Source of the DNA: Candidatus Helarchaeota archaeon
Lineage (GTDB): Archaea > Asgardarchaeota > Lokiarchaeia > Helarchaeales > RDOG01
Length of the DNA stretch: 64,000 nucleotides
Assembly (NCBI GenBank): GCA_019058315.1
Contig: JAHPZH010000006.1
Coordinates: 32,001-96,000, forward strand
Direction of reading: 5' to 3'
Shown here: positions 1 through 49,550 of the stretch, in pieces
Layout: each line of letters opens with the position of its first letter
How positions within the stretch are numbered: the stretch's first letter is position 1
The notes under the pieces: generated by a model
What the model was told of the DNA's origin: nothing
What the model saw: only the letters and a program-made list of their open reading frames with translations
Databases searched by the model: none
Made by a program: the position numbers and the translations under genes

Positions 1-304
1 TCTCCATTTTTAATCATTTTTTTTCTTTCAATTAAATCCTCTTCGTCGAAACGTTTCCAAAAATCATCTATATCAAAGATTCCCCAGTTTCTAAGATATT
101 CATCAAATTTCCTTCCAGAACGCCAAAAGGTGTGAATTTCTTGTTTGGTAAGCTCTTTTTTAGTTAGAATAAAAACAATCTTTGTAATTATTACGTCTAG
201 AATTTCAAAGAAATTCTTGGGAACGTGGATGAATACACTTTAGAAAAATATTTTCATAAATTTGTGCCATCCAAATCAAAAAGAAGTCCGATGTTATTTT
301 TCAT
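1..304 (-). CDS. HAD-superfamily hydrolase, intron-containing (exon1 304..262, exon2 232..<1); 3' end runs off the window
   Basis: ATG at 304 gives MKNNIGLLFDLDGT. Removing 233..261 continues IIHVPKNFFEILDV..., open to the window edge. HAD motif I DxDGT. Not in the ORF track. Confidence 0.85.
233..261 (-). other. 29-nt BHB mRNA intron in the HAD gene
   Basis: Minus strand TGGATG-GCAC-AA^A-TTTATGAAAATATTTTTCTAAA-GTGT-AT^T-CATCCA: 6-bp outer helix, 4-bp central helix, two 3-nt bulges. Contains an in-frame TGA. Confidence 0.88.
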
Positions 305-764
305 GATTTACACTTTTAGATATTTCTAATAAAATTTCAACTGCTTTTCTTACAAATTTAACACATTTTTCTTGTAAAATATTTAATTTAATAAGTTTTT
401 CTCGATCTTCTGGATCTCTTAAGTCACATTGAATTAATTCATAACACATTTCGCTTTTAAATTCGTTTTTAAATCTTTTAATGAATTCATTAGCTAAATC
501 ATATGCATATTCTTTATCTTCATTACTATTTGACCTACCATATTTTAAATTTATTGCCAAGATCGCACCATTTACGGAACCACAAACAGAACCACTTCTA
601 CCTATTCCTCCACCAAATGCCGTGGCAATTTTAGGTGTTATTGGTCCAATATTCCATGCTTCTTGCATTGTCATTAAAACGCTCTCAGCACAATTATATC
701 CTTGTGTAAAATATGCTGTTGCTTTCTTCGGAAATTCTTGATTCTTTTCTCTCATTTTTATCAC
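294..764 (-). CDS. C_GCAxxG_C_C family putative redox-active protein
   Basis: Motifs YNCAESV, FGGGIG..GSVCG and further Cys residues. Confidence 0.85.
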   Translation of the reverse strand: MIKMREKNQEFPKKATAYFTQGYNCAESVLMTMQEAWNIGPITPKIATAFGGGIGRSGSVCGSVNGAILAINLKYGRSNSNEDKEYAYDLANEFIKRFKNEFKSEMCYELIQCDLRDPEDREKLIKLNILQEKCVKFVRKAVEILLEISKSVNHEK

Positions 765-847
765 TAATTATTGAACATAAAGTAATAATACAAAAGATAT
801 TATTTCAATTAATTTCATTAGTTAATAAAAAATAAGGGCTGATTTGT

Positions 848-1627
848 ATCGAAATAATTGATACCCATATTCATTCTATATTTAGAAGTAATGACGATTT
901 TATTAATTTAGTTAAAAAAGGGGTCACAAAAGTTATTAGTGTATCCTTTTATCCAATTGTTCCTTATTATTCTAATACTTTAATTGATTTATTTAATTGG
1001 ATTATTGAAGATGAACCCCGTAGAACTGAATCTACAGGAATTACTATTCATCCTGCTATTGGTATCCATCCCCGATCGATACCTCAAGATCTAAATAAGG
1101 AAAATCTACAGAAACTTAAATTAAAAATCGAGAATGCTATTGAAAATAATAGGATTGTGGCATTAGGTGAAATAGGTTTGGAGTCTGCTACACTAATAGA
1201 AAAGGATATTTTTGAATTTCATCTTAAAATCGCAAAAGAATTCGATTTTCCTGTTATTATACATACTCCTAGAAGGAATAAAAAAGATATTACAAAAAAA
1301 TCTATAGATCTAATATTAAGAAATAAAATAGAAACGGGTGTTTTAGACCACATAGACGAACAAAATCTTTCATTAGCTAAAAATACTAGCTTAAATTTGG
1401 GTTTAACAGTTCAAATGGGAAAGTTAACTCCAGAAAATTTCTATAAAATAGTAAACGAAAATGAACATGAAAAAGATCGTTTTGTACTGAATACTGATAT
1501 TGGAAGAGACGAAGCAGATTTGTATGCGGCATATAAAGCTGTTAATATATTAAAAAATAACGGAATTAATGAACATTTAATAGATTTAATCGCATCTAAA
1601 AATGCAAAAAAGTTATTTAAATTATAG
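848..1627 (+). CDS. TatD-family metal-dependent hydrolase; start uncertain, N-terminus extends upstream of the ORF-track start at 1157
   Basis: Frame open from 836 with IIDTHIH, AIGIHP, ALGEIG, IIHTP and LNTD. No in-frame ATG/GTG/TTG before DTHIH. Confidence 0.8.
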   Translation: MEIIDTHIHSIFRSNDDFINLVKKGVTKVISVSFYPIVPYYSNTLIDLFNWIIEDEPRRTESTGITIHPAIGIHPRSIPQDLNKENLQKLKLKIENAIENNRIVALGEIGLESATLIEKDIFEFHLKIAKEFDFPVIIHTPRRNKKDITKKSIDLILRNKIETGVLDHIDEQNLSLAKNTSLNLGLTVQMGKLTPENFYKIVNENEHEKDRFVLNTDIGRDEADLYAAYKAVNILKNNGINEHLIDLIASKNAKKLFKL

Positions 1628-1665
1628 AATATAAAAAAACAACAATTCAATTATAGTGATTTTTA

Positions 1666-2433
1666 ATGGAATTAACTAAAACTGATAAGATTTTTACTAT
1701 AATTTTAATTATTTTAGGAGTCCTTTCTGTATATTTTTATTTTAATCCTCAAGCAGGTGCTTTTTTAAGTTTTTCGTCTTGGAAAATTGATAGATTTTCA
1801 TTAAATGGAACATTATTAATTGTTTTTATTGTTTGTCTAATTGGTAATCTATTACCGATTCCTACTCCCTATACTTTTATTATAATTCCTGCAGCACTTT
1901 CGTTTCCAGATTTTTTCTGGTTAATTGGATTAATGGCCTCATTTGGAGCTTTATTTGGTGAAATTGTTGGTTTTTGGGTTGGTCGAGGAACAAAAGAAGT
2001 TTTAGAACATACTGACACAGATCTTGAAAAAATTGAGAAATGGAAAAAGCTCGCAAATGAAAGACCTAAATTTGTTATGTTTTTAATTTACATTTTCGGT
2101 TTAACTCCTTTAAATGATGATAATGTTATGGTACCTTTAGGTTTAGCAGAATTTGATTTTAAAAAGACTGTTTTTTCATGCTTTCTTGGAAAACTATCAA
2201 TGATGATGTTATTTGCAGCCGGTACAGTAATTGGAATAGATTTAATTTATAGTGTAATGGGATATTCCAGATTTGAACTATTAAACTATTTACCAGGTGC
2301 TTCAGGACAAGGTAATTGGTTGGAAGGTATGATATTATTTATTATTGTTATCCTAATAGTTTGGGGAATGTTAAAAATAGATATTGGTAGATTTTTAAAA
2401 GAAAAATATGGTGTAGAACAGATAAATGAATAA
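1666..2433 (+). CDS. DedA/VTT-domain (YqaA-like) membrane protein
   Basis: Multiple TM segments; LPIPTP, GALFGE..GFWVG, LTPLNDD...PLG. Confidence 0.75.
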   Translation: MELTKTDKIFTIILIILGVLSVYFYFNPQAGAFLSFSSWKIDRFSLNGTLLIVFIVCLIGNLLPIPTPYTFIIIPAALSFPDFFWLIGLMASFGALFGEIVGFWVGRGTKEVLEHTDTDLEKIEKWKKLANERPKFVMFLIYIFGLTPLNDDNVMVPLGLAEFDFKKTVFSCFLGKLSMMMLFAAGTVIGIDLIYSVMGYSRFELLNYLPGASGQGNWLEGMILFIIVILIVWGMLKIDIGRFLKEKYGVEQINE

Positions 2434-2439
2434 ATAACG

Positions 2440-3147
2440 GTGTGTATTTTGAAAGGTTTTATAATTATAGCTCATCGAGGAGCTAGTGGATATGAATTTG
2501 AAAATTCTATTTCAGCTTTTAAAAAAGCCATCGAATTAAAAGCGGATATGATAGAAACCGATGCTCAAATTACTCAAGATGGAACAATTATTTTAAATCA
2601 CGATAATGGTATTAAAAAGACCACTAATGAAAAAGGATTCATATCGAGATTAACATTAAATGAAATTAAAAAAATTCCGTTAAAAAATGGGGAAATAATG
2701 CCTACTTATCAAGATCTTTTAGATCTTTGTAAAGGTAAAATAGAAATAAATTTAGAAATAAAAGCACGAAGAGTTGAAAAACTAGTAACAGATATTACTC
2801 TAAAGAATGATATGCTAAAAGAAGTCGTATTTTCATCTTTTTCACTGAAAACTCTTAAAAAAATTAGAGAATATAATGATGATGCCAGATTGGCATATTT
2901 AATCATTATACAAGGTTCCTTTATTGCTAGGCTTAATTATTGGATGAAAAAATTAAGTGAATTAAAAGTTGAAAGTATTAATCCCTTTCATATGTTTATA
3001 TCTTCAAAACTTGTGAAAGAAGCTCATAAAAAAGATATTTCTATATATCCTTGGACAATTAATGATTCAACTAAAATTCGAAATTTAATAGAAGAAAAAA
3101 ATATAGATGGAGTATTTACAGATTACCCTGATATATTAAATAAGTAA
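2440..3147 (+). CDS. Glycerophosphodiester phosphodiesterase
   Basis: IAHRGAS, ENS..AF, IETD, NLEIK, WTIN, FTDYP. TTG at 2449 is a possible true start. Confidence 0.92.
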   Translation: MCILKGFIIIAHRGASGYEFENSISAFKKAIELKADMIETDAQITQDGTIILNHDNGIKKTTNEKGFISRLTLNEIKKIPLKNGEIMPTYQDLLDLCKGKIEINLEIKARRVEKLVTDITLKNDMLKEVVFSSFSLKTLKKIREYNDDARLAYLIIIQGSFIARLNYWMKKLSELKVESINPFHMFISSKLVKEAHKKDISIYPWTINDSTKIRNLIEEKNIDGVFTDYPDILNK

Positions 3148-4113
3148 TTAAGCACGTTTTTTCTTTTCTATTATTAATTTTCCTATATGCAAAAATAACT
3201 CATCTATATTTTGTCCTGTTTTAGCTGATGTTTCAAAGAAAAGATAATTTAATTCTTTTGCCAATTTTTTACCTTGTTTGTTAGATACCCTTCTTTGGTT
3301 TTCTAAGTCGATTTTATTACTAACTAACACGCAAACAACATCTTCTTTAGCAAATCGTTTGATTTCACTTACCCATTCACTAACGTTCCTAAAAGACTCA
3401 GGGTTTGTAATATCATAAAGAATTAAAATTGCTTCTGCACCTGGATAATAAGTCTTTCTAAATTTTTGAAATAGTCCCTCTCCTGAAACATCCCATGCAA
3501 CCAAATCAAGTGTGTCATCTTCGACAGGATAAGAATATTTGAAAATATCTACGCCCAAAGTAGGTTTATAATCCGCGATAAATCTTTTTTTAGCAAATTG
3601 AACCAAAAGAGACGTTTTTCCAACTCCTGAATCACCTGAAACAACTATTTTATAGGTATATCTTTTTTTTGGTTGTTTGCTTATTGGAGTTTCAACAATT
3701 TTTTTTGGTTTTTGATATTCTAATGAAATATCAGTTTTCCCTTTAATTACTTTAGCTACTTTCTCCACTGCCATTTCTGCGTAAGGAATGACAGAATCAA
3801 TGCTAGAATTCTGTTTTAATATTGTAGTTAAAATTTTTTGATCCTCAACTTCTGTAAACATCAGAATTTGGGTTTTAATTTGTAAGGTAGCATTTTTGAA
3901 AAAGCCAGTATCAAAATCTTTATGAATTTTTTCACCTAATGAGTGAAGAAGCGCTGTTAAAGCTCCAATTGTAAAATCTTCCAAAGAATCACTAAAAGTA
4001 GATGCAATAATTAGTCCATCAGAGTCTACTATTGCACATCCTAAAATATCGTCCGAAATTTTTACATATTCTCCTAAAACTTTATCTAACATTTCGGTTC
4101 CTATGATTGACAC
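3148..4113 (-). CDS. Roadblock/LC7 domain fused to a Rab-like small GTPase
   Basis: N-terminal AIVDSDGLIIAS roadblock; C-terminal GDSGVGKTS, WDVSG, NKID, ETSAK. Confidence 0.88.
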   Translation of the reverse strand: MSIIGTEMLDKVLGEYVKISDDILGCAIVDSDGLIIASTFSDSLEDFTIGALTALLHSLGEKIHKDFDTGFFKNATLQIKTQILMFTEVEDQKILTTILKQNSSIDSVIPYAEMAVEKVAKVIKGKTDISLEYQKPKKIVETPISKQPKKRYTYKIVVSGDSGVGKTSLLVQFAKKRFIADYKPTLGVDIFKYSYPVEDDTLDLVAWDVSGEGLFQKFRKTYYPGAEAILILYDITNPESFRNVSEWVSEIKRFAKEDVVCVLVSNKIDLENQRRVSNKQGKKLAKELNYLFFETSAKTGQNIDELFLHIGKLIIEKKKRA

Positions 4114-4256
4114 TGTTATTATTCCTCATTTTTTGTTTTTTTCTCATTGTTTTTTTTGAAATAAAAACTCAATAACAAATAAAACTCCATTATATAAATA
4201 TTTATAATGTGAATCGAATTTATTTAAAGAAATATTATAATTTGAGATGATTTTTC

Positions 4257-5753
4257 ATGAAAAAGAATAGTTATGATGCAATAATTATTGGTTCTGGTAT
4301 TGGTGGTTCAGCTTGTGCTGCACTTCTTTCGCATGCTGGTTTCAAAACCTTAGTTTTGGAAAAAAATGAAAGAATTGGTGGTTTTACATCTTGTTATCAA
4401 AAACAAGGGTTCACTATTGATATATCTATTCACGTCTTTTCAAATGGGATAAATGGGCGTTTTGGTAAGATTTTACATAGAATTGGCCTTGCAACTAAAG
4501 AAAAGGGAAAAATTCAAAGTCAATATCTTAAATTCGTTCCAAATTTAGATAGAAGAACTGCAATTAGGATGCCTAATCAAAAAAATTATTTTTCTATGGG
4601 ATCTATGCTTACACCACAAAGTAAAATTACACCTAAACCCGATTCTGGTAATATTCAAAAAACTGTGTCTAATTTAGGAATGAATAAAGAAGATATGAAT
4701 AATTTGATGAACATTTTTATGACAATATTGGGTCTTACAAAACGAAAAATCAGAAAATTAGAAGAAAACCAATTAACTTTAAAAAATTATATTGAATCAT
4801 TTACAAAAAGTCCATTTATCCACAGTTTTCTTGCGTTTACAGTTGGAGGAATGTTTGCGATTTCTCCACGAAGAGCAAGCGCGGCAGAATTTGTTAGAGG
4901 TATTCAAGAATGGTTTGGCTCCAATGATATGTCATATCCCCTAGGAGGAAGTATCGCTGTTCCACAAGCATTCCTTGAAGGTGTTAAAAAATATGGTGGG
5001 GATATTAGGACCAAAGCACGAGTTTCAGAAATCGTTATCGAGAATAATAGAGCTAAAGGGGTAATTGTTAATGATGAATTTATAGAATCCAGTTTTATTA
5101 TTAGTAATGCCGGAATAAAAAAAACTGTTCTCTCTCTAACAGGGGAAAAATTTTATGAGAATAATTACATTAACAAAGTTAAATCGTTAGTTCCATCAAA
5201 TTCTTCAATAACTTTTAAATTTGCTTTAAATAAACAAATAATACCCAAAGAATTTGGAATGGTAAATATATTCCATAAAAATTTATTAAATCCTAGTAAA
5301 AAATCGGAAGAAGGGGACACAAGATCTACAGGTTTTATGACTATGATACCGTCAAATCTCGATCCAAATCTAGCTCCTCCAGGAAAACAATTAATAATTT
5401 TTGGAACTTTAGCTCCAACAAAAGGCGTTGAAGATTGGAAAAAGTGGACGGATATGCATTATGAAGAAATTTTACGAAATTACCCAGAAATTGAAGACCA
5501 AATTATTTTTGTGGATGTTTCGACTCCTTTAGATTTGGCTCAACTTTCAGGAAAAAAGTATGGACCAATAGAATCTACGGCCTTAATTCCTTCGCAATCA
5601 GGACCTAATAGAATATCCTCAGAATTGCCGATTGATGGTCTTTATGTCGTAGGGGATAGTGCTGGAACTAATACTCATGGTATTGGAACACAACTTGCAG
5701 CAGATAGCGCTATCAAGTGTGCCGATTTGATAATTTCGAAATATAAGCAGTAA
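4257..5753 (+). CDS. Phytoene dehydrogenase-like FAD-dependent oxidoreductase
   Basis: GSGIGG Rossmann motif, LEKNERIGG, LAPPGK, GLYVVGD. Confidence 0.85.
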   Translation: MKKNSYDAIIIGSGIGGSACAALLSHAGFKTLVLEKNERIGGFTSCYQKQGFTIDISIHVFSNGINGRFGKILHRIGLATKEKGKIQSQYLKFVPNLDRRTAIRMPNQKNYFSMGSMLTPQSKITPKPDSGNIQKTVSNLGMNKEDMNNLMNIFMTILGLTKRKIRKLEENQLTLKNYIESFTKSPFIHSFLAFTVGGMFAISPRRASAAEFVRGIQEWFGSNDMSYPLGGSIAVPQAFLEGVKKYGGDIRTKARVSEIVIENNRAKGVIVNDEFIESSFIISNAGIKKTVLSLTGEKFYENNYINKVKSLVPSNSSITFKFALNKQIIPKEFGMVNIFHKNLLNPSKKSEEGDTRSTGFMTMIPSNLDPNLAPPGKQLIIFGTLAPTKGVEDWKKWTDMHYEEILRNYPEIEDQIIFVDVSTPLDLAQLSGKKYGPIESTALIPSQSGPNRISSELPIDGLYVVGDSAGTNTHGIGTQLAADSAIKCADLIISKYKQ

Positions 5754-5862
5754 ATCTTCTTTTTTCTAAATTTCAGATCACTATTTGTGGAGTTTAAATA
5801 GGGATCTGAGAGTAAGAGTGCAATATGAAAAAAGAGTGAGAGCATTCCGAAAGTATTAGGAT

Positions 5863-6102
5863 TTGATAAAAATGATGCTACCATGTTTTAAATGTAAAAA
5901 TTGTAATACAAATTGGATTATAGATATCTATTCAGATTCTAAAGAAGGTATTATTCAAGAATTCATAAGCCAAATGTGTTGCCCAATCTGTGGGAAAAGG
6001 AATTTGAGAGTATGTTTTATTCGAAAAGTAGATGATGAAACTCCTGATATTATACAAGAGTCATTTAATAATTGTGATGAAATTACTCAATCTTTAATGT
6101 AA
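5863..6102 (+). CDS. Small zinc-ribbon protein
   Basis: CKNC...CPICG. Confidence 0.6.
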   Translation: MIKMMLPCFKCKNCNTNWIIDIYSDSKEGIIQEFISQMCCPICGKRNLRVCFIRKVDDETPDIIQESFNNCDEITQSLM

Positions 6103-6127
6103 TTTGTATTCGAAAATTCTTCTTAAA

Positions 6128-6476
6128 TTAAGTTCCTCGTCTTCTATATTTACACCCTTTTATGGGACAAAATCTATATTGAGGAGCAGAAGATCCGGCA
6201 ACTGGTCTTTTAATAATCCATCCAGAAACCCAACCATGATGTGGACAGTAATATTTTTCTCTATCTTTTAAATTTTCATCTTGTTCGTCTTGTGTAACTT
6301 TAAAATTACATACATCATGTGTTTGTTTATATTTTTCATTTACTGGACATACATTCCCTTTACGTTTAATTAAATTTACGCGGGCTATCCTCAGAATTTA
6401 TACATCCAGTACAATCTACTGGAATTTCTTTCACCTCATGTTCATATTTAATTATTGAAAGATTGTCTTTATACAT
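6128..6476 (-). CDS. Small Cys/His-rich (putative Zn-binding) protein, intron-containing (exon1 6476..6376, exon2 6359..6128; 110 aa from ATG 6476, start uncertain)
   Basis: Spliced product ...PVDCTGCINSEDSPRK-GNVCPVN...YYCPHHGW...RFCPIKGCKYRRRGT*. Exons total 333 nt. Not in the ORF track. Confidence 0.7.
6360..6375 (-). other. 16-nt BHB mRNA intron
   Basis: Minus strand CCC-GCGT-AA^A-TTTAATTAA-ACGT-AA^A-GGG; in-frame TAA; inner stem is only about 2 bp. Confidence 0.7.
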
Positions 6477-6596
6477 TATAATAAATTAGTTTAATTTTTA
6501 AAAAATAAACTTCATATAATCCTTAATAAGAAAAGAAATTTATTTTATCAACTACTACTTAAAAAGCAATTATTTAATTAGGAGGAACTACTACCT

Positions 6597-8117
6597 ATGA
6601 TAGCTGCTATTTGGAATCAACGTTTAATAACAGCAGTGGAACGTGCTAGATTAGCTCATAATGTATTTTGTGCATATAATGCTAATATCGATGCAAAAGA
6701 ATATATTAATGCTCAAAAAATTCATGTGGCATTTTTAAAAGACCCTTATCTTGTAGATAGAGTAAAAGCTGCAGTTAAAAATCCTCCCGATGAAATTCGC
6801 TCACCTGCAGATTTTTTAGCAGGTCTATATTTAGCTATGAAAGAAGGAAAATCTTTACAATGGGAAATCCGGGAAAAAAATAGAGAAATGTTAGAATGGT
6901 TTGATGAATACTTTGAAAATCCTGATGAAACTCGTATGGGTGGACAAACTGGCATTATTGCTAATTTATTGTCTATTTTAGGAGTAGAAGCTATTGTTTA
7001 CCTACCATTATTATCAAAAAAACAAGCTGAAATTTTTAGAAAAGAGCGTATATTTGTTCCTGTTAATAAAAATGATGTTGCAGAATTTCTTCCAATCCAA
7101 GAAGCTTATCGTGAAAAAGATGATACAAAAATAAATTGGGTATTTGAATTTAGAGAAGGTGGTAAGTTTCCTGTTCCTATTGAAGATAATGAAATAATTA
7201 TTGCCCCTCGTACAAATAGGTTTATTGTGGCAAGTAGACCTCCAGGTTTGATTCCTGTATGTGACTCAAAGACTGAAATAATTCTACCACAAATTGGAGA
7301 ACGTGTCGATAGAGTTATTCTTGGTGGTTATCAATACCTACGTCAAAGATATCCTGATGGTAAGACTTGTTCTGATTATTTGGATATAATTACAAAGCAT
7401 CTATTAATGTTAAAATCTAAAAACCTTTTGTTAAGGCTTCATATGGAATTTGCAGGTATTCCAAACGAACATATTAGGAAAGACATTTTGCTTAAAATCT
7501 CTCCTCAAATAAATAGCCTGGGTCTAAATGAGGTAGAAATTTTAATGGCCCTTGAGATTCTAGAATGTGAAGATGAAATTGAAATGATTAAAGCGAATGA
7601 AAATGCTTATACATTATATTTGGGTATGCTAAAAATGGCAGAATTATTAGGTTTAGAAAGAATTCATCTTCATAATCTAGGTTATCATGTTTTATACCTT
7701 AATAAATGTTATCCAACTTCTGCTTATGCTGCTAGAAATGCATTACTTTATGCTTCTAATATTGGGGCCACAAGAGCTCTAATGGGAGACTTTTACTCTC
7801 GAAGACCTGTAAGTTATGAAATTGAAATTGGAAAAACAGTGAGTATATCTTATACAGGATTAAAACAGTTAGAATTTTTTGCTGATAAAATGCTCAAAGA
7901 AGGAGTTAAATTTGATAAAGATAAATTTATGGATGAAGGAATACTAGAATTTGATAAATATTATGTCATTATTGCTCCTGCTCAAATTGCACCTTATCCT
8001 CAGAGTACCGTCGGGATTGGGGATTCTGTTAGTGCAGCTGCATTTGTTGCAGATGAGGCCAGGGATCCTCATGGTGAGAAAGAACACTGTGTAAGTCCTG
8101 AAACTGAACATATTTAA
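6597..8117 (+). CDS. pfkC: ADP-dependent phosphofructokinase/glucokinase
   Basis: AYNANIDA, RMGGQTGIIAN, SLGLNEVE, STVGIGDSVSA. Confidence 0.9.
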   Translation: MIAAIWNQRLITAVERARLAHNVFCAYNANIDAKEYINAQKIHVAFLKDPYLVDRVKAAVKNPPDEIRSPADFLAGLYLAMKEGKSLQWEIREKNREMLEWFDEYFENPDETRMGGQTGIIANLLSILGVEAIVYLPLLSKKQAEIFRKERIFVPVNKNDVAEFLPIQEAYREKDDTKINWVFEFREGGKFPVPIEDNEIIIAPRTNRFIVASRPPGLIPVCDSKTEIILPQIGERVDRVILGGYQYLRQRYPDGKTCSDYLDIITKHLLMLKSKNLLLRLHMEFAGIPNEHIRKDILLKISPQINSLGLNEVEILMALEILECEDEIEMIKANENAYTLYLGMLKMAELLGLERIHLHNLGYHVLYLNKCYPTSAYAARNALLYASNIGATRALMGDFYSRRPVSYEIEIGKTVSISYTGLKQLEFFADKMLKEGVKFDKDKFMDEGILEFDKYYVIIAPAQIAPYPQSTVGIGDSVSAAAFVADEARDPHGEKEHCVSPETEHI

Positions 8118-8143
8118 CGTTATTTCTTGTTTTTATTTTATTT

Positions 8144-8788
8144 TTCCAATAGAAATTAAGGGGTCATTTATTTTTTATGTCAAATCTATTTGAGCTAATT
8201 TATTTTTTCCTAAAATTCTTATCAATTAACTCAATTTGATTTGAGTTAAATAATTTCTTTGGCCTGGAATTGACTTTACATTGTTTGTAAATACTTTAAA
8301 TTAATCATTCTAAAACTATTTACAAACATTTAATTTTTTGCTTAATTTGAAAAATTTTCAAAAGACTCCTTCATTTCCATTGGAATTTCACAATATCTAT
8401 TTACTTCTAATATTTAATCAATAAAAATTTATAAATTTATAAAGAAATTTTTACAGAGACTTTAAATATCCTTCTTATCCATAACTAACGACTCATATTA
8501 TTATCATAAATAAAAAGATAATAATTATATAGCTTAGCATATTATTATCAGTTCCAATGGAAAATAAGGGGTGTTAAAATCAATTTTTTTTTCTGGAAAT
8601 CTAATAAAAATGTTAGGACTAAAAGGAAAAAATAGAGAATTAAAATATAAATCAAATTTAAAATAGGTAAAATTTTGAGTTAATATTATTTTTAATAAAT
8701 GAAAGAGGATATAAAATCAGGTCTTATAACTTATAAAGTTCTTTATTTTTCTTACATAGATTTCATAACCCCTTCATTTCAACTGGAA
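8144..8788. promoter_or_regulatory. Putative replication origin (oriC) with four ORB elements
   Basis: TTCCAnnnGAAAnnAAGGRGT at 8144-8164(+), 8365-8385(-), 8552-8572(+) and 8768-8788(-), in a ~0.95 kb AT-rich non-coding gap. Matches the archaeal ORB with G-string. Confidence 0.8.
8282..8328. repeat. Inverted repeat TGTTTGTAAATA-N23-TATTTACAAACA, copy 1
   Basis: Perfect 12-bp arms at 8282-8293 and 8317-8328. Confidence 0.85.
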
Positions 8789-9005
8789 CTTAAATATTAG
8801 TACCATTTAGATGATATCTAGGGACTATTAAATGGTCAGATCAAATCAAAAGAAATACGAAAAATTATATTATAGAACATTACAAAAAATTAATATAAAA
8901 TTTTTAATTTTTTTAAACAAATTTACAATTTATCAATTCATAAAAGGTCAATTTCAGGGTTAATAACTATAGAAAAAATTATTATCTATTAGAAATCAAA
9001 ATAAA

Positions 9006-31996: not shown

Positions 31997-32925
31997 ATGG
32001 AAATAATTTTTTTAGGAACATCAGGGACAGTTCCAACTGTTTCACGCAGTTTGCCTGCAATAATAATAAAAAGAGAAAATGATTTTTTGCTTTTTGATTG
32101 CGGTGAAAAAAACTAATTAATTGTAGTTTTCACTAAGGCACACAACTTCAATTTAGGAAAGCAAAAATCAGTTTTTTTAAAATTAATAAGATTTTTCTTT
32201 CACATTTACATGGCGATCATATTACTGGGTTACCTGGTCTAATTATGTCATTAGCTTTAGGTAAAAGAGAGAAAACTCTTACAATTTATGGACCTAATGG
32301 GATTAAAGGATTTATAAATAAAGTTATTGATACAATGCATTTTGATTTAACTTATCCTTTAGAAATAGTTGAAATAGCTGGAGAAGAAAATTTTGAATTT
32401 TTAAATTATAAAATTACTTGTTTTCCTTTAGAACATAGGATATTTACCTTAGGATATGTTATTGTAGAAAAACCAAAGGCAAAATTCGATGTTGAAAAGG
32501 CGAAGTCATTAAAAATTCCAAAAGGTCCTTTATGGGGAAAATTGAAATCAGGTGAAAGTATTCATTTAAATAATGGGAGAGTTATCCAACCTTCCCAAGT
32601 TTTAGGAAATATAAAACCTGGAAAAAAAATTTTATATTGCACAGATACTCGTCCTACAATTAAGACAAAAAATTTAAGCAAGAACGCAGATTTACTCATT
32701 CATGATGGTATGTTTGAAGAGAATCTAAAAGAGTTCGCTACAATTGGAGGACATTCAACAGTAGTTGAAGCCGCAGAACTGGCTAAAGATTCGAAAGTAA
32801 AAAAATTAATCTTATTCCATATAAGTTCTAGATATGAAAATAATAATTCTATTTTAGAACTTCAAGCAAAAAAAATTTTTCCTAATTCATTCATAGCTGA
32901 AGATTTTATGAGAATTTTAGTTTAA
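31997..32925 (+). CDS. rnz: Ribonuclease Z, intron-containing (exon1 31997..32107, exon2 32137..32925; 299 aa)
   Basis: [14 protein letters not shown]...LFDCGE|GTQ...SHLHGDH..G, exosite GPLWG, CTDT, HST, HIS. The ORF track finds only the C-terminal part. Confidence 0.93.
32108..32136 (+). other. 29-nt BHB mRNA intron in rnz
   Basis: TGC-GGTG-AA^A-AAAACTA-attaattg-TAGTTTT-CACT-AA^G-GCA; in-frame TAA. Confidence 0.92.
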
Positions 32926-40217: not shown

Positions 40218-40325
40218 GGGCCGGTAGATCAGCCTGGTATGATCGCCACGCTTGCAACGTGGAGATTGAATATATTACAATTTATCAACCATATGTCCCG
40301 GGATCGAAGCCCGGCCGGTCCACCA
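40218..40325 (+). tRNA. tRNA-Ala(TGC) with a 30-nt intron at 45/46 (40265..40294); CCA encoded
   Basis: GGGCCGG/CCGGTCC with G3:U70; CCACG-CT-TGC-AA-CGTGG. Splice motif GTGG-AG^A-TTGA...TCAA-CCAT-AT^G yields variable loop AGGTC. Confidence 0.93.
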
Positions 40326-47398: not shown

Positions 47399-49550
47399 TT
47401 AAAAAAAATCGGCTTTTGGTATTTCAGCTTTTCTACCTTTTTTTATACGAATGTCTGAAATTATTTTTTGAGCGCTATCATAGGAAATAAATTCCCAATG
47501 AGAAAAAACTGTTTGCCAGAATGCTTGTCCTGCAGTTTTTGAACGAATATCAGTAGATAGATTAAATGATTCTTTAACTGGAATTAGACCAGTAATGTAT
47601 GAATAAGAATCTTTTTGTTCAATATTTAGAATTTTGCTTTTCCTTTGTAATAATAAAGCTGTAATAACTCCTATTAGATTTGTAGGAACTTGGATTTGAA
47701 TCTTATAAATTGGCTCAAAAATAGTAGGTTCTGATTTTAAAAAAGCGCTGTAAACCGCTCTTTTACCCATTAACATAATTTGAAGCGGATCGACTTCTAA
47801 AGTATTTTTATCAATTTTTAATAAATGGATATTTATTTGCAATCCTTTTATTGGTTCTTCGCATAAAGGTCCTGCATTTAGAGCCATTTTAATACCCTTT
47901 ATAATAATTTCTTTGATTTTATCATCAATTTCTTGGCTTAAATCATTAATAATTAGATTATTATTGTAATCTATTGCTAGAATCTTCTTATGTTTTAAAA
48001 TTTCTTTAATTCTTTCTTCGTTTATTGGTTCTACTGAAAGTTTGATTTGATTCAAATTATTTTGACTTAAAGTTGAAATTATTGGGCTCTTTATTTTAAT
48101 TCCTTCTCTGTAGACTACAATTGGATCGGACATTAATATGTCAATCCCAAAATCTTTTATTTCATTAGCAATGATTTCTAGATGTAATTGTCCGATTCCA
48201 GAAATCAAATATTCCCCTGTATCTTCATTAATATCGATTTTTATATCGGGATCGTTTATTTTTATTTTATTTAAAATATCTAGCATTTTAGGTAATTCCT
48301 TTGGATGTTTGGGTTCAATAGAAACTGTTATAACAGGATCTGATACATATTTGATATTTTCAAATGGGTCAATTATTTCTTTAAACTCACTATTAGTTAA
48401 TGTTTCTCCAACTATTGCCTCTGAGAGGCCTATAAAAGCTCCAATATTACCTGCTGTAAGAGAATTAACAATTTCTCTTTTATGTCCCATTGAAATGAAA
48501 ATTTTTAAAACTCGATTAATGTCTTTCGCAGTTAATAAATAGACTTCATCACCTGAATTAATGGTTCCAGAAAATATACGTCCTATTGATATTTTTCCTA
48601 CATGTTTGTCAAATAATATCTTATGAATACAAATAATTAATGGTCCATTTTCATTACATTTTTGCATATTTTGTGCTAAAGCTGAATTTAAATCGCCTTT
48701 CCAAATTTTTTTAATTCTATAAGTTTGTGCAATTTTAGGACTTGGCAAATGATTAATTATCATATTTAATATACATTTATCTAAAGGTAGAATTTCACTT
48801 AATATCTCAATTTTGTTTATTCCATTTTTATAATAATTAAAAATATTATCAAACTTTAGTTTCTTATTTTTCATGATATTTAATGTAAAACCCCAACTAG
48901 GATATAAAGCGCATCCAAATCCTACATTATTCATTTCTGGAATTATTTTCCATTTATCTTTAAATTCATTTTCAGCATAAAGTTCAATATAATCGTTAAA
49001 TTTATCTATAATATTTTGAAAATAATTTTGAATTTCATTAGAGTTTAATTTTAATTCTTTTATTAAACGATCAACTTTATTTATATACAGAATTGGTTTT
49101 ATACGTTCTTGCAAAGCTTGTTTTGTTACAATTTCTGTCTGAATTTGGCATCCTTCAACTGCATCTACAACTACAATGGCACCATCAATTGCTCTTAACG
49201 CTCTAGATACTCTGGCAGTTAAATCCACTTAGTCTATAAAAATAATTTTATTTTTATATATGACCTGGAGTATCTATCAGATTAATAATGAATCTCTCAT
49301 TAGCTATTTGATACAATAATGAAATATTTGCAGTCTTAACTGTAATTCCTCTTTTTTGTTCAATATCTAAATAATCCAGAGCCCGAAGAGAACCTGCTAA
49401 ATTTGAAGATATTACTTTCCCTAATGCTAAAAGGCTATCAGTTAAAGTAGTCTTTCCATGGTCTATATGCGCTATTATACCAATATTGCGTATGTTGTCC
49501 TTTTGTTTCATTGTTTCTAAAATTTCATTAATTTTTTTTGATTTTACCAT
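47399..49550 (-). CDS. fusA: Elongation factor 2 homolog, intron-containing (exon1 49550..49260, exon2 49228..47399; 706 aa)
   Basis: AHIDHGKTT, RGIT, spliced DTPGH|VD, NKVD, GQLHLE, EPIY; diphthamide HRG motif absent. Confidence 0.92.
49229..49259 (-). other. 31-nt BHB mRNA intron in EF-2
   Basis: Minus strand CCA-GGTC-AT^A-TATAAAAATA-aaat-TATTTTTATA-GACT-AA^G-TGG; in-frame TAA. Confidence 0.93.

What the first reader, a model, noticed from the sequence alone, without database searches (positions are those of the whole stretch)
6128..6476. Hidden Cys/His-rich gene revealed only by removing a 16-nt BHB intron
The apparent intergenic gap holds CTGC in one frame and CP...C...CPHH...CPIKGC in another. 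They are joined exactly by excising A-TTTAATTAA-ACGT-AA from CCC-GCGT-AAA/ACGT-AAA-GGG. This is a very short BHB intron and the protein family is unknown to me. The weak inner stem makes it less certain than the other three.
Basis: seen in the sequence. Interest (0 to 1): 0.72.

Follow-up and report, generated by a model that had tools for sequence, protein, structure and literature searches.

The report
16-base tRNA-type intron in Asgard gene
A small zinc-finger-like gene of an uncultured Asgard archaeon is broken by a 16-base insert that has the exact shape cut out by the tRNA-splicing enzyme, so its messenger RNA most likely has to be spliced, but no RNA data could be found to prove it.

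Summary
The gene lies on the minus strand. Exon 1 runs from 6434 (or 6476) to 6376, the 16-nt insert is 6375-6360, and exon 2 is 6359-6128.

Seven homologues (92-96 aa, Helarchaeales-like Asgard) read straight through the junction. Syntenic orthologous loci lack exactly these 16 nt. The insert is also present, 100% identical, in an independent Logan assembly.

The boundaries form a bulge-helix-bulge motif: CCC/GGG outer helix, GCGU/ACGU central helix and two AAA bulges. The inner stem is almost absent, only 2 A-U pairs.

Chance gives such a frame at about 1% of homology-fixed boundaries, and about 2e-5 at this G+C quality. The motif also carries the signature shared by four homology-verified coding-gene inserts on the same contig. 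That signature is a G.U outermost central pair, an A-N-A 5' bulge and an A-first 3' bulge.

tRNA-Ser genes of this genome have 11-16-nt introns without inner stems. Two EndA paralogues and RtcB are present.

Weak points: the insert is unique to this genome, no RNA run was listed, and the gene is dispensable in some relatives. I put EndA-spliced micro-intron at about 0.72 and recent pseudogenising insertion at about 0.2. This scan has flagged such introns before, in this and other Asgard genomes.

The parts
6376..6434 (-). Exon 1, from the conserved GTG start at 6434 (alternative, non-conserved ATG at 6476) to the second nucleotide of the 5' bulge. It encodes MKEIPVDCTGCINSEDSPR plus the first two bases of a Lys codon.
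   Evidence: Translation. Homologues start at the equivalent GTG or just before PVDC. ATG 6476 is not conserved in orthologous loci.
6360..6375 (-). The 16-nt insert, a candidate BHB micro-intron: A TTTAATTAA ACGT AA. It contains an in-frame TAA and its length is not a multiple of 3.
   Evidence: It is absent from L001, L004 and L022 and from all seven homologous proteins. It is present unchanged in Logan contig L024. It is unique in the genome, with no other copy at up to 3 mismatches.
6128..6359 (-). Exon 2, including the TAA stop at 6130-6128. It encodes the last base of the Lys codon plus GNVCPVNEKYK...CPHHGW...RPVAGSSAPQYRFCPIKGCKYRRRGT. There is no in-frame start codon of its own in the first ~50 codons.
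   Evidence: It is 90% identical to P0001 over 78 aa.
6382..6384 (-). Outer helix h, 5' strand (CCC). It pairs with GGG at 6358-6356.
   Evidence: MFE and pair probabilities of 0.53-0.92.
6356..6358 (-). Outer helix h, 3' strand (GGG).
6378..6381 (-). Central 4-bp helix H, 5' strand (GCGU). Its outermost pair is a G.U wobble.
   Evidence: Pair probabilities of 0.88-0.96.
6362..6365 (-). Central 4-bp helix H, 3' strand (ACGU).
6375..6377 (-). 5' bulge AAA. The predicted cut is after 6376.
   Evidence: Geometry read from the sequence. The rule of cutting between the 2nd and 3rd bulge residues is from PMC2738675.
6359..6361 (-). 3' bulge AAA. The predicted cut is after 6360.
6366..6374 (-). Apical part UUUAAUUAA. 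At best it forms two A-U pairs closing a 5-nt loop. In the MFE it merges with the 5' bulge into a 12-nt loop.
6399..6411 (-). 5' strand of a 13-bp exon-exon helix that encloses the BHB. It contains the window-specific synonymous change GGC to GGA (A at 6405).
   Evidence: MFE with 40-nt flanks. Codon alignment.
6341..6353 (-). 3' strand of the 13-bp exon-exon helix. It contains the window-specific change GAA to GTA (Glu to Val, T at 6351) at a residue that is acidic in all seven homologues.
   Evidence: The stabilisation is not significant against random substitutions (7%).
6487..6508 (-). Strongly conserved A/T-rich upstream block (TTTATT.TTAAAAATTAAAC..) in the gap shared with the divergent ADP-dependent kinase gene. 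It is a candidate promoter element.
   Evidence: Invariant in four orthologous loci. The function is inferred only.

Best explanation
The locus is a live gene for a 96-aa Cys/His-rich protein. It has 7 invariant Cys and 2 invariant His, so it is probably a two-zinc-site protein; its family is an orphan restricted to Helarchaeales-like Asgard archaea. Its pre-mRNA carries a 16-nt bulge-helix-bulge micro-intron.

Proposed mechanism:
1. The transcript folds so that exon bases CCC/GGG form the outer helix.
2. Exon GCGU pairs with intron ACGU to form the 4-bp central helix.
3. Two AAA bulges lie on opposite strands. The 5' one sits at the edge of a 12-nt apical loop, which makes this the hBH / bulge-helix-loop class.
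4. The (alpha-beta)2-type splicing endonuclease cuts after the second nucleotide of each bulge.
5. RtcB joins the exons to ...CCG CGU AAA GGG AAU..., restoring the reading frame.

The intron was gained recently, on the terminal branch leading to this genome, at a site (CCCGCGTAAAGGG) that already carried half of the motif.

Shown: the gene, the exact 16-nt insertion, the motif, the enzymes, and comparable substrates in the same genome. Inferred: cleavage, ligation and translation of the spliced mRNA.
For: (1) Seven contiguous homologues span the junction, for example DCTGCINSEDNPRKGNECPVNE. Syntenic loci lack exactly 16 nt.

(2) The homology-defined boundaries coincide with a BHB frame that is the MFE structure, with central-helix probability of about 0.9. 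The chance of such a frame is 0.17% per register, about 1.2% over 7 registers. At the observed quality it is 2.7e-6 per position.

(3) Four other coding-gene inserts on the same contig were verified here by domain continuity:
- aconitase family, Pfam profile positions 129|130;
- EF-2-like, GTP_EFTU positions 79|82;
- RNase Z;
- HAD, with DLDGT|I in a 15-codon first exon.
All four share the register and a signature: G.U at the outermost central pair, a 5' bulge A-N-A, and a 3' bulge starting with A. The candidate has this signature too. Only 0.5% of chance BHB frames in this genome do.

(4) tRNA-Ser genes of this genome carry 11-, 15- and 16-nt introns at position 37/38. The 11- and 15-nt ones have a 3' AAA bulge, a 4-bp helix and no inner stem.

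(5) Two EndA catalytic-domain paralogues and RtcB are encoded. Asgard EndA is reported as (alpha-beta)2 with the L1 loop that allows relaxed hBH/BHL substrates (PMC5829648).

(6) Confirmed cbf5 mRNA introns are 16-44 bp, so 16 nt has a precedent (PMC2738675).

(7) There is no second disabling mutation in 291 nt. The terminal branch has 5 synonymous and 6 nonsynonymous changes, pN/pS 0.30. Exon 2 has no start codon of its own. The gene is single-copy.

(8) The insert is present in an independent Logan assembly.
Against: No RNA evidence exists. The insert is found only in this genome or sample. All relatives retrieved are intron-less (G001, G003, G005, L001-L004, L009-L011, L022), so there is no conservation or covariation.

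The inner helix is only two A-U pairs, and the outer helix only 3 bp.

The gene was not found in 3 of 6 genomes of the same order. It is therefore dispensable, and a recent pseudogene is plausible.

A conserved acidic residue next to a Cys ligand is Val here.

pN/pS on the terminal branch is somewhat higher than on the sister branches (0.30 against 0.18 and 0.12), on tiny counts.

The insert can also be described as a 6-nt target duplication plus a 10-nt palindrome.
Confidence: 0.72

Rival explanations
1. Recent pseudogene. A 16-nt insertion, describable as a duplication of CGTAAA plus the palindrome TTTAATTAAA (for example a repair or mobile-element footprint), frameshifted a dispensable gene. 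The BHB-like shape is then coincidental or a by-product of the palindromic sequence, and the mRNA is not repaired.
For: The insert is unique to this genome. The gene was not found in 3 of 6 genomes of the same order. There is a direct repeat and an internal palindrome. Glu is replaced by Val at an otherwise invariant acidic residue. The terminal-branch pN/pS of 0.30 is not distinguishable from mild relaxation.
Against: The chance of a BHB frame at the fixed boundaries is about 1%, and far less at the observed G-C content. It also carries the signature of the four verified coding-gene introns, which only 0.5% of chance frames do. The direct repeat follows automatically from a self-complementary central helix plus equal bulges, so it is not independent evidence for duplication. 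There is no second lesion. Synonymous changes are in excess over the neutral 1:4 expectation (5 S to 6 N, binomial p about 0.05).
Confidence: 0.2
2. Translational recoding of the unspliced mRNA. One form is ribosomal bypassing: peptidyl-tRNA-Lys takes off at AAA 6377-6375 and lands on AAA 6361-6359, 16 nt downstream, which gives the same protein. The other is a +1 frameshift near AAU UAA A, which gives a product about 5 residues longer.
For: Take-off and landing contexts are identical (CGU AAA), with an in-frame UAA inside the gap. The loop region tolerates indels in homologues P0006 and P0007.
Against: No bypassing is known in archaea (my own knowledge). The codon after take-off is UUU, not a stop. 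There is no convincing slippery site. This reading would leave unexplained the BHB geometry and the signature shared with four other inserts of 27-31 nt, which have no matched codons.
Confidence: 0.04
3. Assembly or sequencing artefact, or two independent small genes.
For: Only one sample carries the sequence.
Against: An independent Logan assembly of run SRR14802573 is identical over 401 nt, including the insert. A 16-nt non-homopolymer insertion is not a typical read error. Exon 2 has no start codon of its own. Both pieces align to one contiguous protein family.
Confidence: 0.02

Closest known systems
BHB intron of the cbf5 (pseudouridine synthase) pre-mRNA in Crenarchaeota (Watanabe 2002; Yokobori 2009, PMC2738675)
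   Same: It is a short (16-44 bp) intron inside an archaeal protein-coding sequence. It is bounded by a BHB motif with cuts between the 2nd and 3rd bulge residues. It is processed by a hetero-oligomeric EndA with relaxed specificity, and it shows lineage-specific gain and loss.
   Different: The host gene differs: an orphan Cys/His-rich protein rather than cbf5. The phylum differs: Asgard rather than Crenarchaeota. The insert is unique to one genome rather than conserved across orders. cbf5 splicing is confirmed by cDNA, and this case is not.
Micro-introns of tRNA genes in the same genome: tRNA-Ser UGA (11 nt), CGA (15 nt) and GGA (16 nt), at position 37/38
   Same: The size class is the same. 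In the 11- and 15-nt introns there is a 4-bp central helix, a 3' AAA bulge and no real inner stem, so the 5' cut site lies in a loop. The EndA and RtcB enzymes are presumably the same.
   Different: The outer helix there is the 5-9-bp anticodon stem within a folded tRNA body, whereas here it is only 3 G-C pairs in an mRNA. In the 11- and 15-nt tRNA introns the G.U lies at the inner end of the central helix, and here it lies at the outer end.
BHB intron in the 5' UTR of HVO_1309 mRNA, Haloferax volcanii (PMC7714728)
   Same: It is an EndA-processed BHB in an mRNA, shown by circRNA-seq and in vitro cleavage.
   Different: It is 46 nt long, lies in the UTR rather than the coding sequence, and does not restore a reading frame.
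Unconventional splicing of XBP1/HAC1 mRNA in eukaryotes (IRE1 cleavage, RtcB or Trl1 ligation); named from my own knowledge
   Same: It is non-spliceosomal. A tiny intron (26 nt in XBP1) is removed, its removal shifts the reading frame, and the exons are joined by the tRNA ligase. This is an analogy of mechanism only.
   Different: The endonuclease differs (IRE1 rather than EndA/TSEN), the recognition motif differs (twin stem-loops), and the process is stress-regulated.

Membership tests
Archaeal BHB (EndA-type) intron | [quoted passage not shown] | tested here: met
   GCGU/ACGU with AAA and AAA. This is the MFE structure, with pair probabilities of 0.88-0.96.
Archaeal BHB (EndA-type) intron | Outer (exon-exon) helix h of at least 2 pairs | tested here: met
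   CCC/GGG, with probability 0.53-0.92 depending on the flank length. A 13-bp exon-exon helix lies further out.
Archaeal BHB (EndA-type) intron | Inner helix h' of at least 2 pairs (the strict hBHBh' form) | tested here: inconclusive
   Only UU/AA closing a 5-nt loop is possible, and it is absent from the MFE. The motif is effectively of the hBH / bulge-helix-loop class, which (alpha-beta)2 EndA with the L1 loop accepts (PMC5829648).
Archaeal BHB (EndA-type) intron | Cuts after the 2nd bulge residue at both sites give a product colinear with intron-less homologues | tested here: met
   The spliced translation matches P0001-P0007 across the junction without any indel.
Archaeal BHB (EndA-type) intron | Splicing endonuclease and RNA ligase encoded by the organism | tested here: met
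   Two PF01974 paralogues (103 and 78 bits) and one RtcB (582 bits).
Archaeal BHB (EndA-type) intron | Spliced RNA or excised intron observed | not testable with these tools
   No RNA holder was listed for this stretch, so no reads could be laid.
Archaeal BHB (EndA-type) intron | Intron kept in relatives with compensatory changes | tested here: not met
   All relatives retrieved are intron-less. This is supportive evidence rather than a defining feature, and its absence fits a recent gain.
cbf5-type pre-mRNA intron (homologous intron family) | Located in cbf5 at the catalytic Asp codon | tested here: not met
   The host is an unrelated orphan protein. It is the same kind of intron but not the same intron.
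Programmed translational bypass (T4 gene 60 type) | Matched take-off and landing codons with a stop codon directly after take-off | tested here: not met
   The AAA codons match, but the next codon is UUU. The UAA comes two codons later.
Pseudogene | Further disabling lesions or neutral substitution pattern | tested here: inconclusive
   There is no other lesion. The count is 5 S to 6 N on the terminal branch, against a neutral expectation of about 1:4. The numbers are too small to decide.

The most novel reading that the evidence does not exclude
This is an intron gain caught almost in the act in a protein-coding gene of an Asgard archaeon. A 16-nt micro-intron entered a pre-existing half-motif (CCCGCGTAAAGGG, still intact in intron-less orthologues) on a terminal branch. 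The exons have since begun to adapt to it: two derived substitutions complete a 13-bp exon-exon clamp helix, and one of them overrides an otherwise invariant acidic residue. If true, it gives a concrete before-and-after pair for the open question of how BHB introns arrive. It would also show RNA-structure selection acting on coding sequence in the closest archaeal relatives of eukaryotes.
Probability: 0.2. Interest if true: 0.8.

Novelty: new member of a known kind. Interest (0 to 1): 0.58.

Why it matters
In the papers I could search, splicing of an archaeal coding sequence by the tRNA endonuclease is documented only for cbf5 in Crenarchaeota. One further case lies in a haloarchaeal 5' UTR (PMC2738675, PMC7714728).

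This locus adds an unrelated gene in an Asgard archaeon, in a genome where I verified four further coding-gene inserts of the same build. At 16 nt it sits at the lower size limit known for mRNA BHB introns.

It has intron-less orthologues with the identical target site, so it is a clean case for studying intron gain. A 2026 preprint on Asgard tRNA introns states that the route of arrival is still open.

Practically, such micro-introns make gene callers miss or truncate real genes. Here only a 36-aa stub was called.

Tried and rejected
- **RNA evidence.** No RNA holder was listed for window 1-9000, so no junction reads could be examined.
- **Insert-bearing relatives.** I searched 61 related genomes, metagenome contigs and GTDB genome contigs, and looked up the 36-aa exon-1 stub by exact match. 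Only intron-less relatives turned up, plus the same organism's Logan contig.
- **Genome-wide scan for further micro-introns.** I combined the BHB frame with an ORF-merging criterion. It was too noisy in this 30% G+C genome. An apparent 17-nt candidate in a roughly 30-kb ORF was a false positive, because the ORF is contiguous. I abandoned the scan. It did turn up the aconitase-family insert.
- **Adaptive clamp-helix idea.** The window's sequence is 4.1 kcal/mol more stable than the inferred ancestor, but 7% of random substitution sets do as well. I treat this as suggestive only.
- **Protein function.** Nothing was learned:
  - no Pfam family;
  - an HMM search of 1.84 billion representatives found only the protein's own cluster, a fragment, and one multi-zinc-ribbon protein of 1094 aa;
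  - the AlphaFold model had mean pLDDT 58, too poor for a fold search;
  - the ESM Atlas gave no scores above 0.87.
- **Intron mobility.** There is no second copy of the insert in the genome at up to 3 mismatches.

Full report
**What is there.** The finding lies on the minus strand. Frame 1 runs from ATG 6476 through DCTGCINSEDSPRKFN to a TAA. The +1 frame is open from just upstream of 6364 to the TAA at 6130-6128. It encodes RKGNVCPVNEKYK...CPHHGW...RPVAGSSAPQYRFCPIKGCKYRRRGT. Deleting 6375-6360 (A TTTAATTAA ACGT AA) joins the frames. Because CGTAAA is repeated on both sides, seven cut registers are equivalent and all give the same product.

**The gene is real and the insert is exactly 16 nt.** A search with exon 2 alone returned seven proteins of 92-96 aa from Helarchaeota/Hodarchaeota-labelled MAGs and metagenomes. 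All of them continue upstream into the exon-1 sequence without interruption, for example MKKFPIDCTGCINSEDNPRKGNECPVNEKYK.

Their loci are syntenic with the window. An ADP-dependent kinase of 506 aa is transcribed divergently on one side, and a gene for a zinc-ribbon protein of about 75 aa lies on the other. The nucleotide alignment shows a clean 16-nt gap, with L004 reading GACAACCCG|CGTAAAGGGAATGAG.

The conserved start is the GTG at 6434, giving 96 aa. ATG 6476 and the 14 codons after it are not conserved. Exon 2 has no start codon of its own in its first 50 or so codons. The gene is single-copy in this genome.

**It is not an assembly artefact.** A 44.7-kb Logan contig assembled independently from run SRR14802573 is 100% identical over 6100-6500, insert included. 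There the gene caller found only the 36-aa exon-1 stub.

**The shape.** Reading 5' to 3' on the RNA, the motif is:
- CCC (6384-6382), outer helix;
- GCGU (6381-6378), central helix;
- AAA (6377-6375), 5' bulge;
- UUUAAUUAA (6374-6366), apical part;
- ACGU (6365-6362), central helix;
- AAA (6361-6359), 3' bulge;
- GGG (6358-6356), outer helix.

This is the register of a bulge-helix-bulge motif: an outer helix, a 3' bulge, a 4-bp helix and a 5' bulge. Cutting after the second residue of each bulge removes exactly the 16 nt. That cutting rule is confirmed for cbf5 introns (PMC2738675).

ViennaRNA puts the central and outer helices in the MFE with both 15-nt and 40-nt flanks. Pair probabilities are 0.88-0.96 for the central helix and 0.53-0.92 for the outer helix. 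The inner stem is at best two A-U pairs. Thermodynamically the 5' bulge merges into a 12-nt loop, which places the motif in the hBH / bulge-helix-loop class.

**Is it more than chance?** In this genome (about 30% G+C overall, 29% on this contig) a frame of 7 consecutive pairs (3 outer plus 4 central) occurs at 0.17% of positions at 16-nt spacing. Over the seven registers allowed by the repeat, that is about 1.2%. With at least 5 G-C pairs and at most one G.U, as observed, only 31 sites exist in the whole genome on both strands, or 2.7e-6 per position.

**Same-genome comparanda.** I verified four other coding-gene inserts on the same contig by homology.

| Host gene | Insert | Location | Evidence |
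|---|---|---|---|
| Aconitase family | 27 nt | C6:232831-232857 | Splits the Pfam profile at 129\|130 |
| EF-2-like | 31 nt | window 49259-49229 | Splits GTP_EFTU at 79\|82 |
| RNase Z | 29 nt | window 32108-32136 | Precedes the Lactamase_B_2 body |
| HAD hydrolase | 29 nt | window 261-233 | Separates a 15-codon exon ending FDLDGT from the HAD_2 body |

All four have the same register and a common signature:
- a G.U wobble at the outermost pair of the central helix;
- a 5' bulge of the form A-N-A;
- a 3' bulge beginning with A.

The 16-nt insert has the same signature, whereas only 0.5% of chance BHB frames in this genome do. This is a test learned on four cases and applied to the fifth.

Micro-introns without inner stems are ordinary substrates in this organism. 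Three tRNA-Ser genes carry introns of 11, 15 and 16 nt at 37/38. Two examples are CTTG-agt-TTTT-TAAG-aaa and CTCG-agt-TGGAAAAA-TGAG-aaa.

The genome encodes two EndA catalytic-domain paralogues and RtcB. Asgard EndA is described as (alpha-beta)2 with the L1 loop that confers cleavage of relaxed hBH/BHL motifs (PMC5829648). The shortest confirmed cbf5 mRNA intron is 16 bp.

**What speaks against.** The insert is unique to this genome. One genome of the same family and two of the same order carry contiguous genes, as do all metagenomic relatives. There is therefore no conservation or covariation.

The gene was not found in three of six genomes of the order, so losing it is tolerable. On the window's terminal branch I count 5 synonymous and 6 nonsynonymous changes (pN/pS 0.30, against 0.18 and 0.12 on the sister branches). 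That is a synonymous excess over the neutral expectation, but only at p of about 0.05.

A Glu or Asp that is invariant in the seven homologues is Val here. No RNA run was listed, so splicing itself is untested.

**A possible adaptation.** With 40-nt flanks the MFE contains a 13-bp exon-exon helix (6411-6399 with 6353-6341) that encloses the BHB. Two window-specific substitutions each convert a mismatch seen in the orthologues into an A-U pair in that helix. One is synonymous, GGC to GGA at 6405. The other is GAA to GTA at 6351, which is the Glu-to-Val change. This would explain the odd replacement. However, random sets of four substitutions reach the same gain of 4.1 kcal/mol in 7% of trials, so I report it as suggestive only.

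**Rivals.**
- A recent frameshifting insertion (pseudogene) explains the uniqueness. It does not explain the motif, its quality or the shared signature. I give it about 0.2.
- Ribosomal bypass between the two CGU-AAA contexts, or a +1 frameshift, would also yield a protein. Neither has the required neighbouring stop or slippery site, and neither explains the four sister inserts. I give this about 0.04.
- An artefact or two separate genes: about 0.02.

**The protein.** It has no Pfam family. A profile search of 1.84 billion representatives found essentially only its own cluster. The AlphaFold model was poor, with pLDDT 58, and the Atlas gave nothing. From the invariant C-x2-C ... H-x2-C and C-P-x-H ... 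C-x4-C spacing I infer two zinc sites. The function is otherwise unknown.

**Novelty.** The kind is known: an EndA-type intron in an archaeal coding sequence, as in cbf5. The host gene, the phylum and the apparent recency of the gain are new. My literature searches found no report of BHB introns in Asgard protein-coding genes. Earlier notes of this scan had already flagged such introns in this genome and in other Asgard genomes. I used them as leads and re-tested those that lie in or next to this window.

Noticed in passing
L023:431-457 (G000 C6:232831-232857, outside the window): A 27-nt BHB insert (GGC|GGCG|aca..CGCT|aga|GCC) with a 7-bp inner stem splits an aconitase-family gene exactly between Pfam profile positions 129 and 130. 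An extended outer helix of about 12 bp is predicted.
   Followed up: partly
window 233-261, 32108-32136, 49229-49259; L023:431-457; window 6360-6375: All five coding-gene inserts on contig C6 share a G.U wobble at the outermost pair of the central helix, a 5' bulge A-N-A and a 3' bulge starting with A. The 11- and 15-nt tRNA-Ser micro-introns instead have the G.U at the inner end. This may reflect a common origin or an EndA preference for mRNA substrates.
   Followed up: partly
L014:99-193, L015:123-220, L016:110-208 (G000 C5:275498-275592, C6:14722-14819, C10:98509-98607): Three tRNA-Ser genes (UGA, CGA, GGA) carry 11-, 15- and 16-nt introns at 37/38 with no inner stem. The GGA one has only 2 of 4 central pairs in the canonical register.
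   Followed up: partly
L013:122-224 (G000 C5): A tRNA carries an insert of about 29 nt between the anticodon arm and the T arm (GTGG-aga-..-CCAC-aag). It is HBh'-like and has no outer helix.
   Followed up: no
window 40218-40322: Rfam finds a 105-nt intron-containing tRNA directly upstream of tRNA-His. ARAGORN missed it.
   Followed up: no
window 6487-6508: An A/T-rich block of about 20 nt is invariant across four orthologous loci. It lies in the gap between the Cys/His gene and the divergent ADP-dependent kinase gene and is probably a shared promoter element.
   Followed up: no
G000 C5:~1,000,000-1,043,000 (minus strand): A contiguous open frame of more than 43 kb (a giant protein of over 14,000 aa) was seen while checking a false-positive micro-intron candidate.
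   Followed up: no
P0009 (1094 aa, metagenomic): This was the only distant hit of the family profile. It matches the C-terminal CPxHGW...CPxxGC module seven times, beside transglutaminase-core, fn3 and GH85_C domains. The module may therefore be a repeatable zinc-ribbon-like unit.
   Followed up: no
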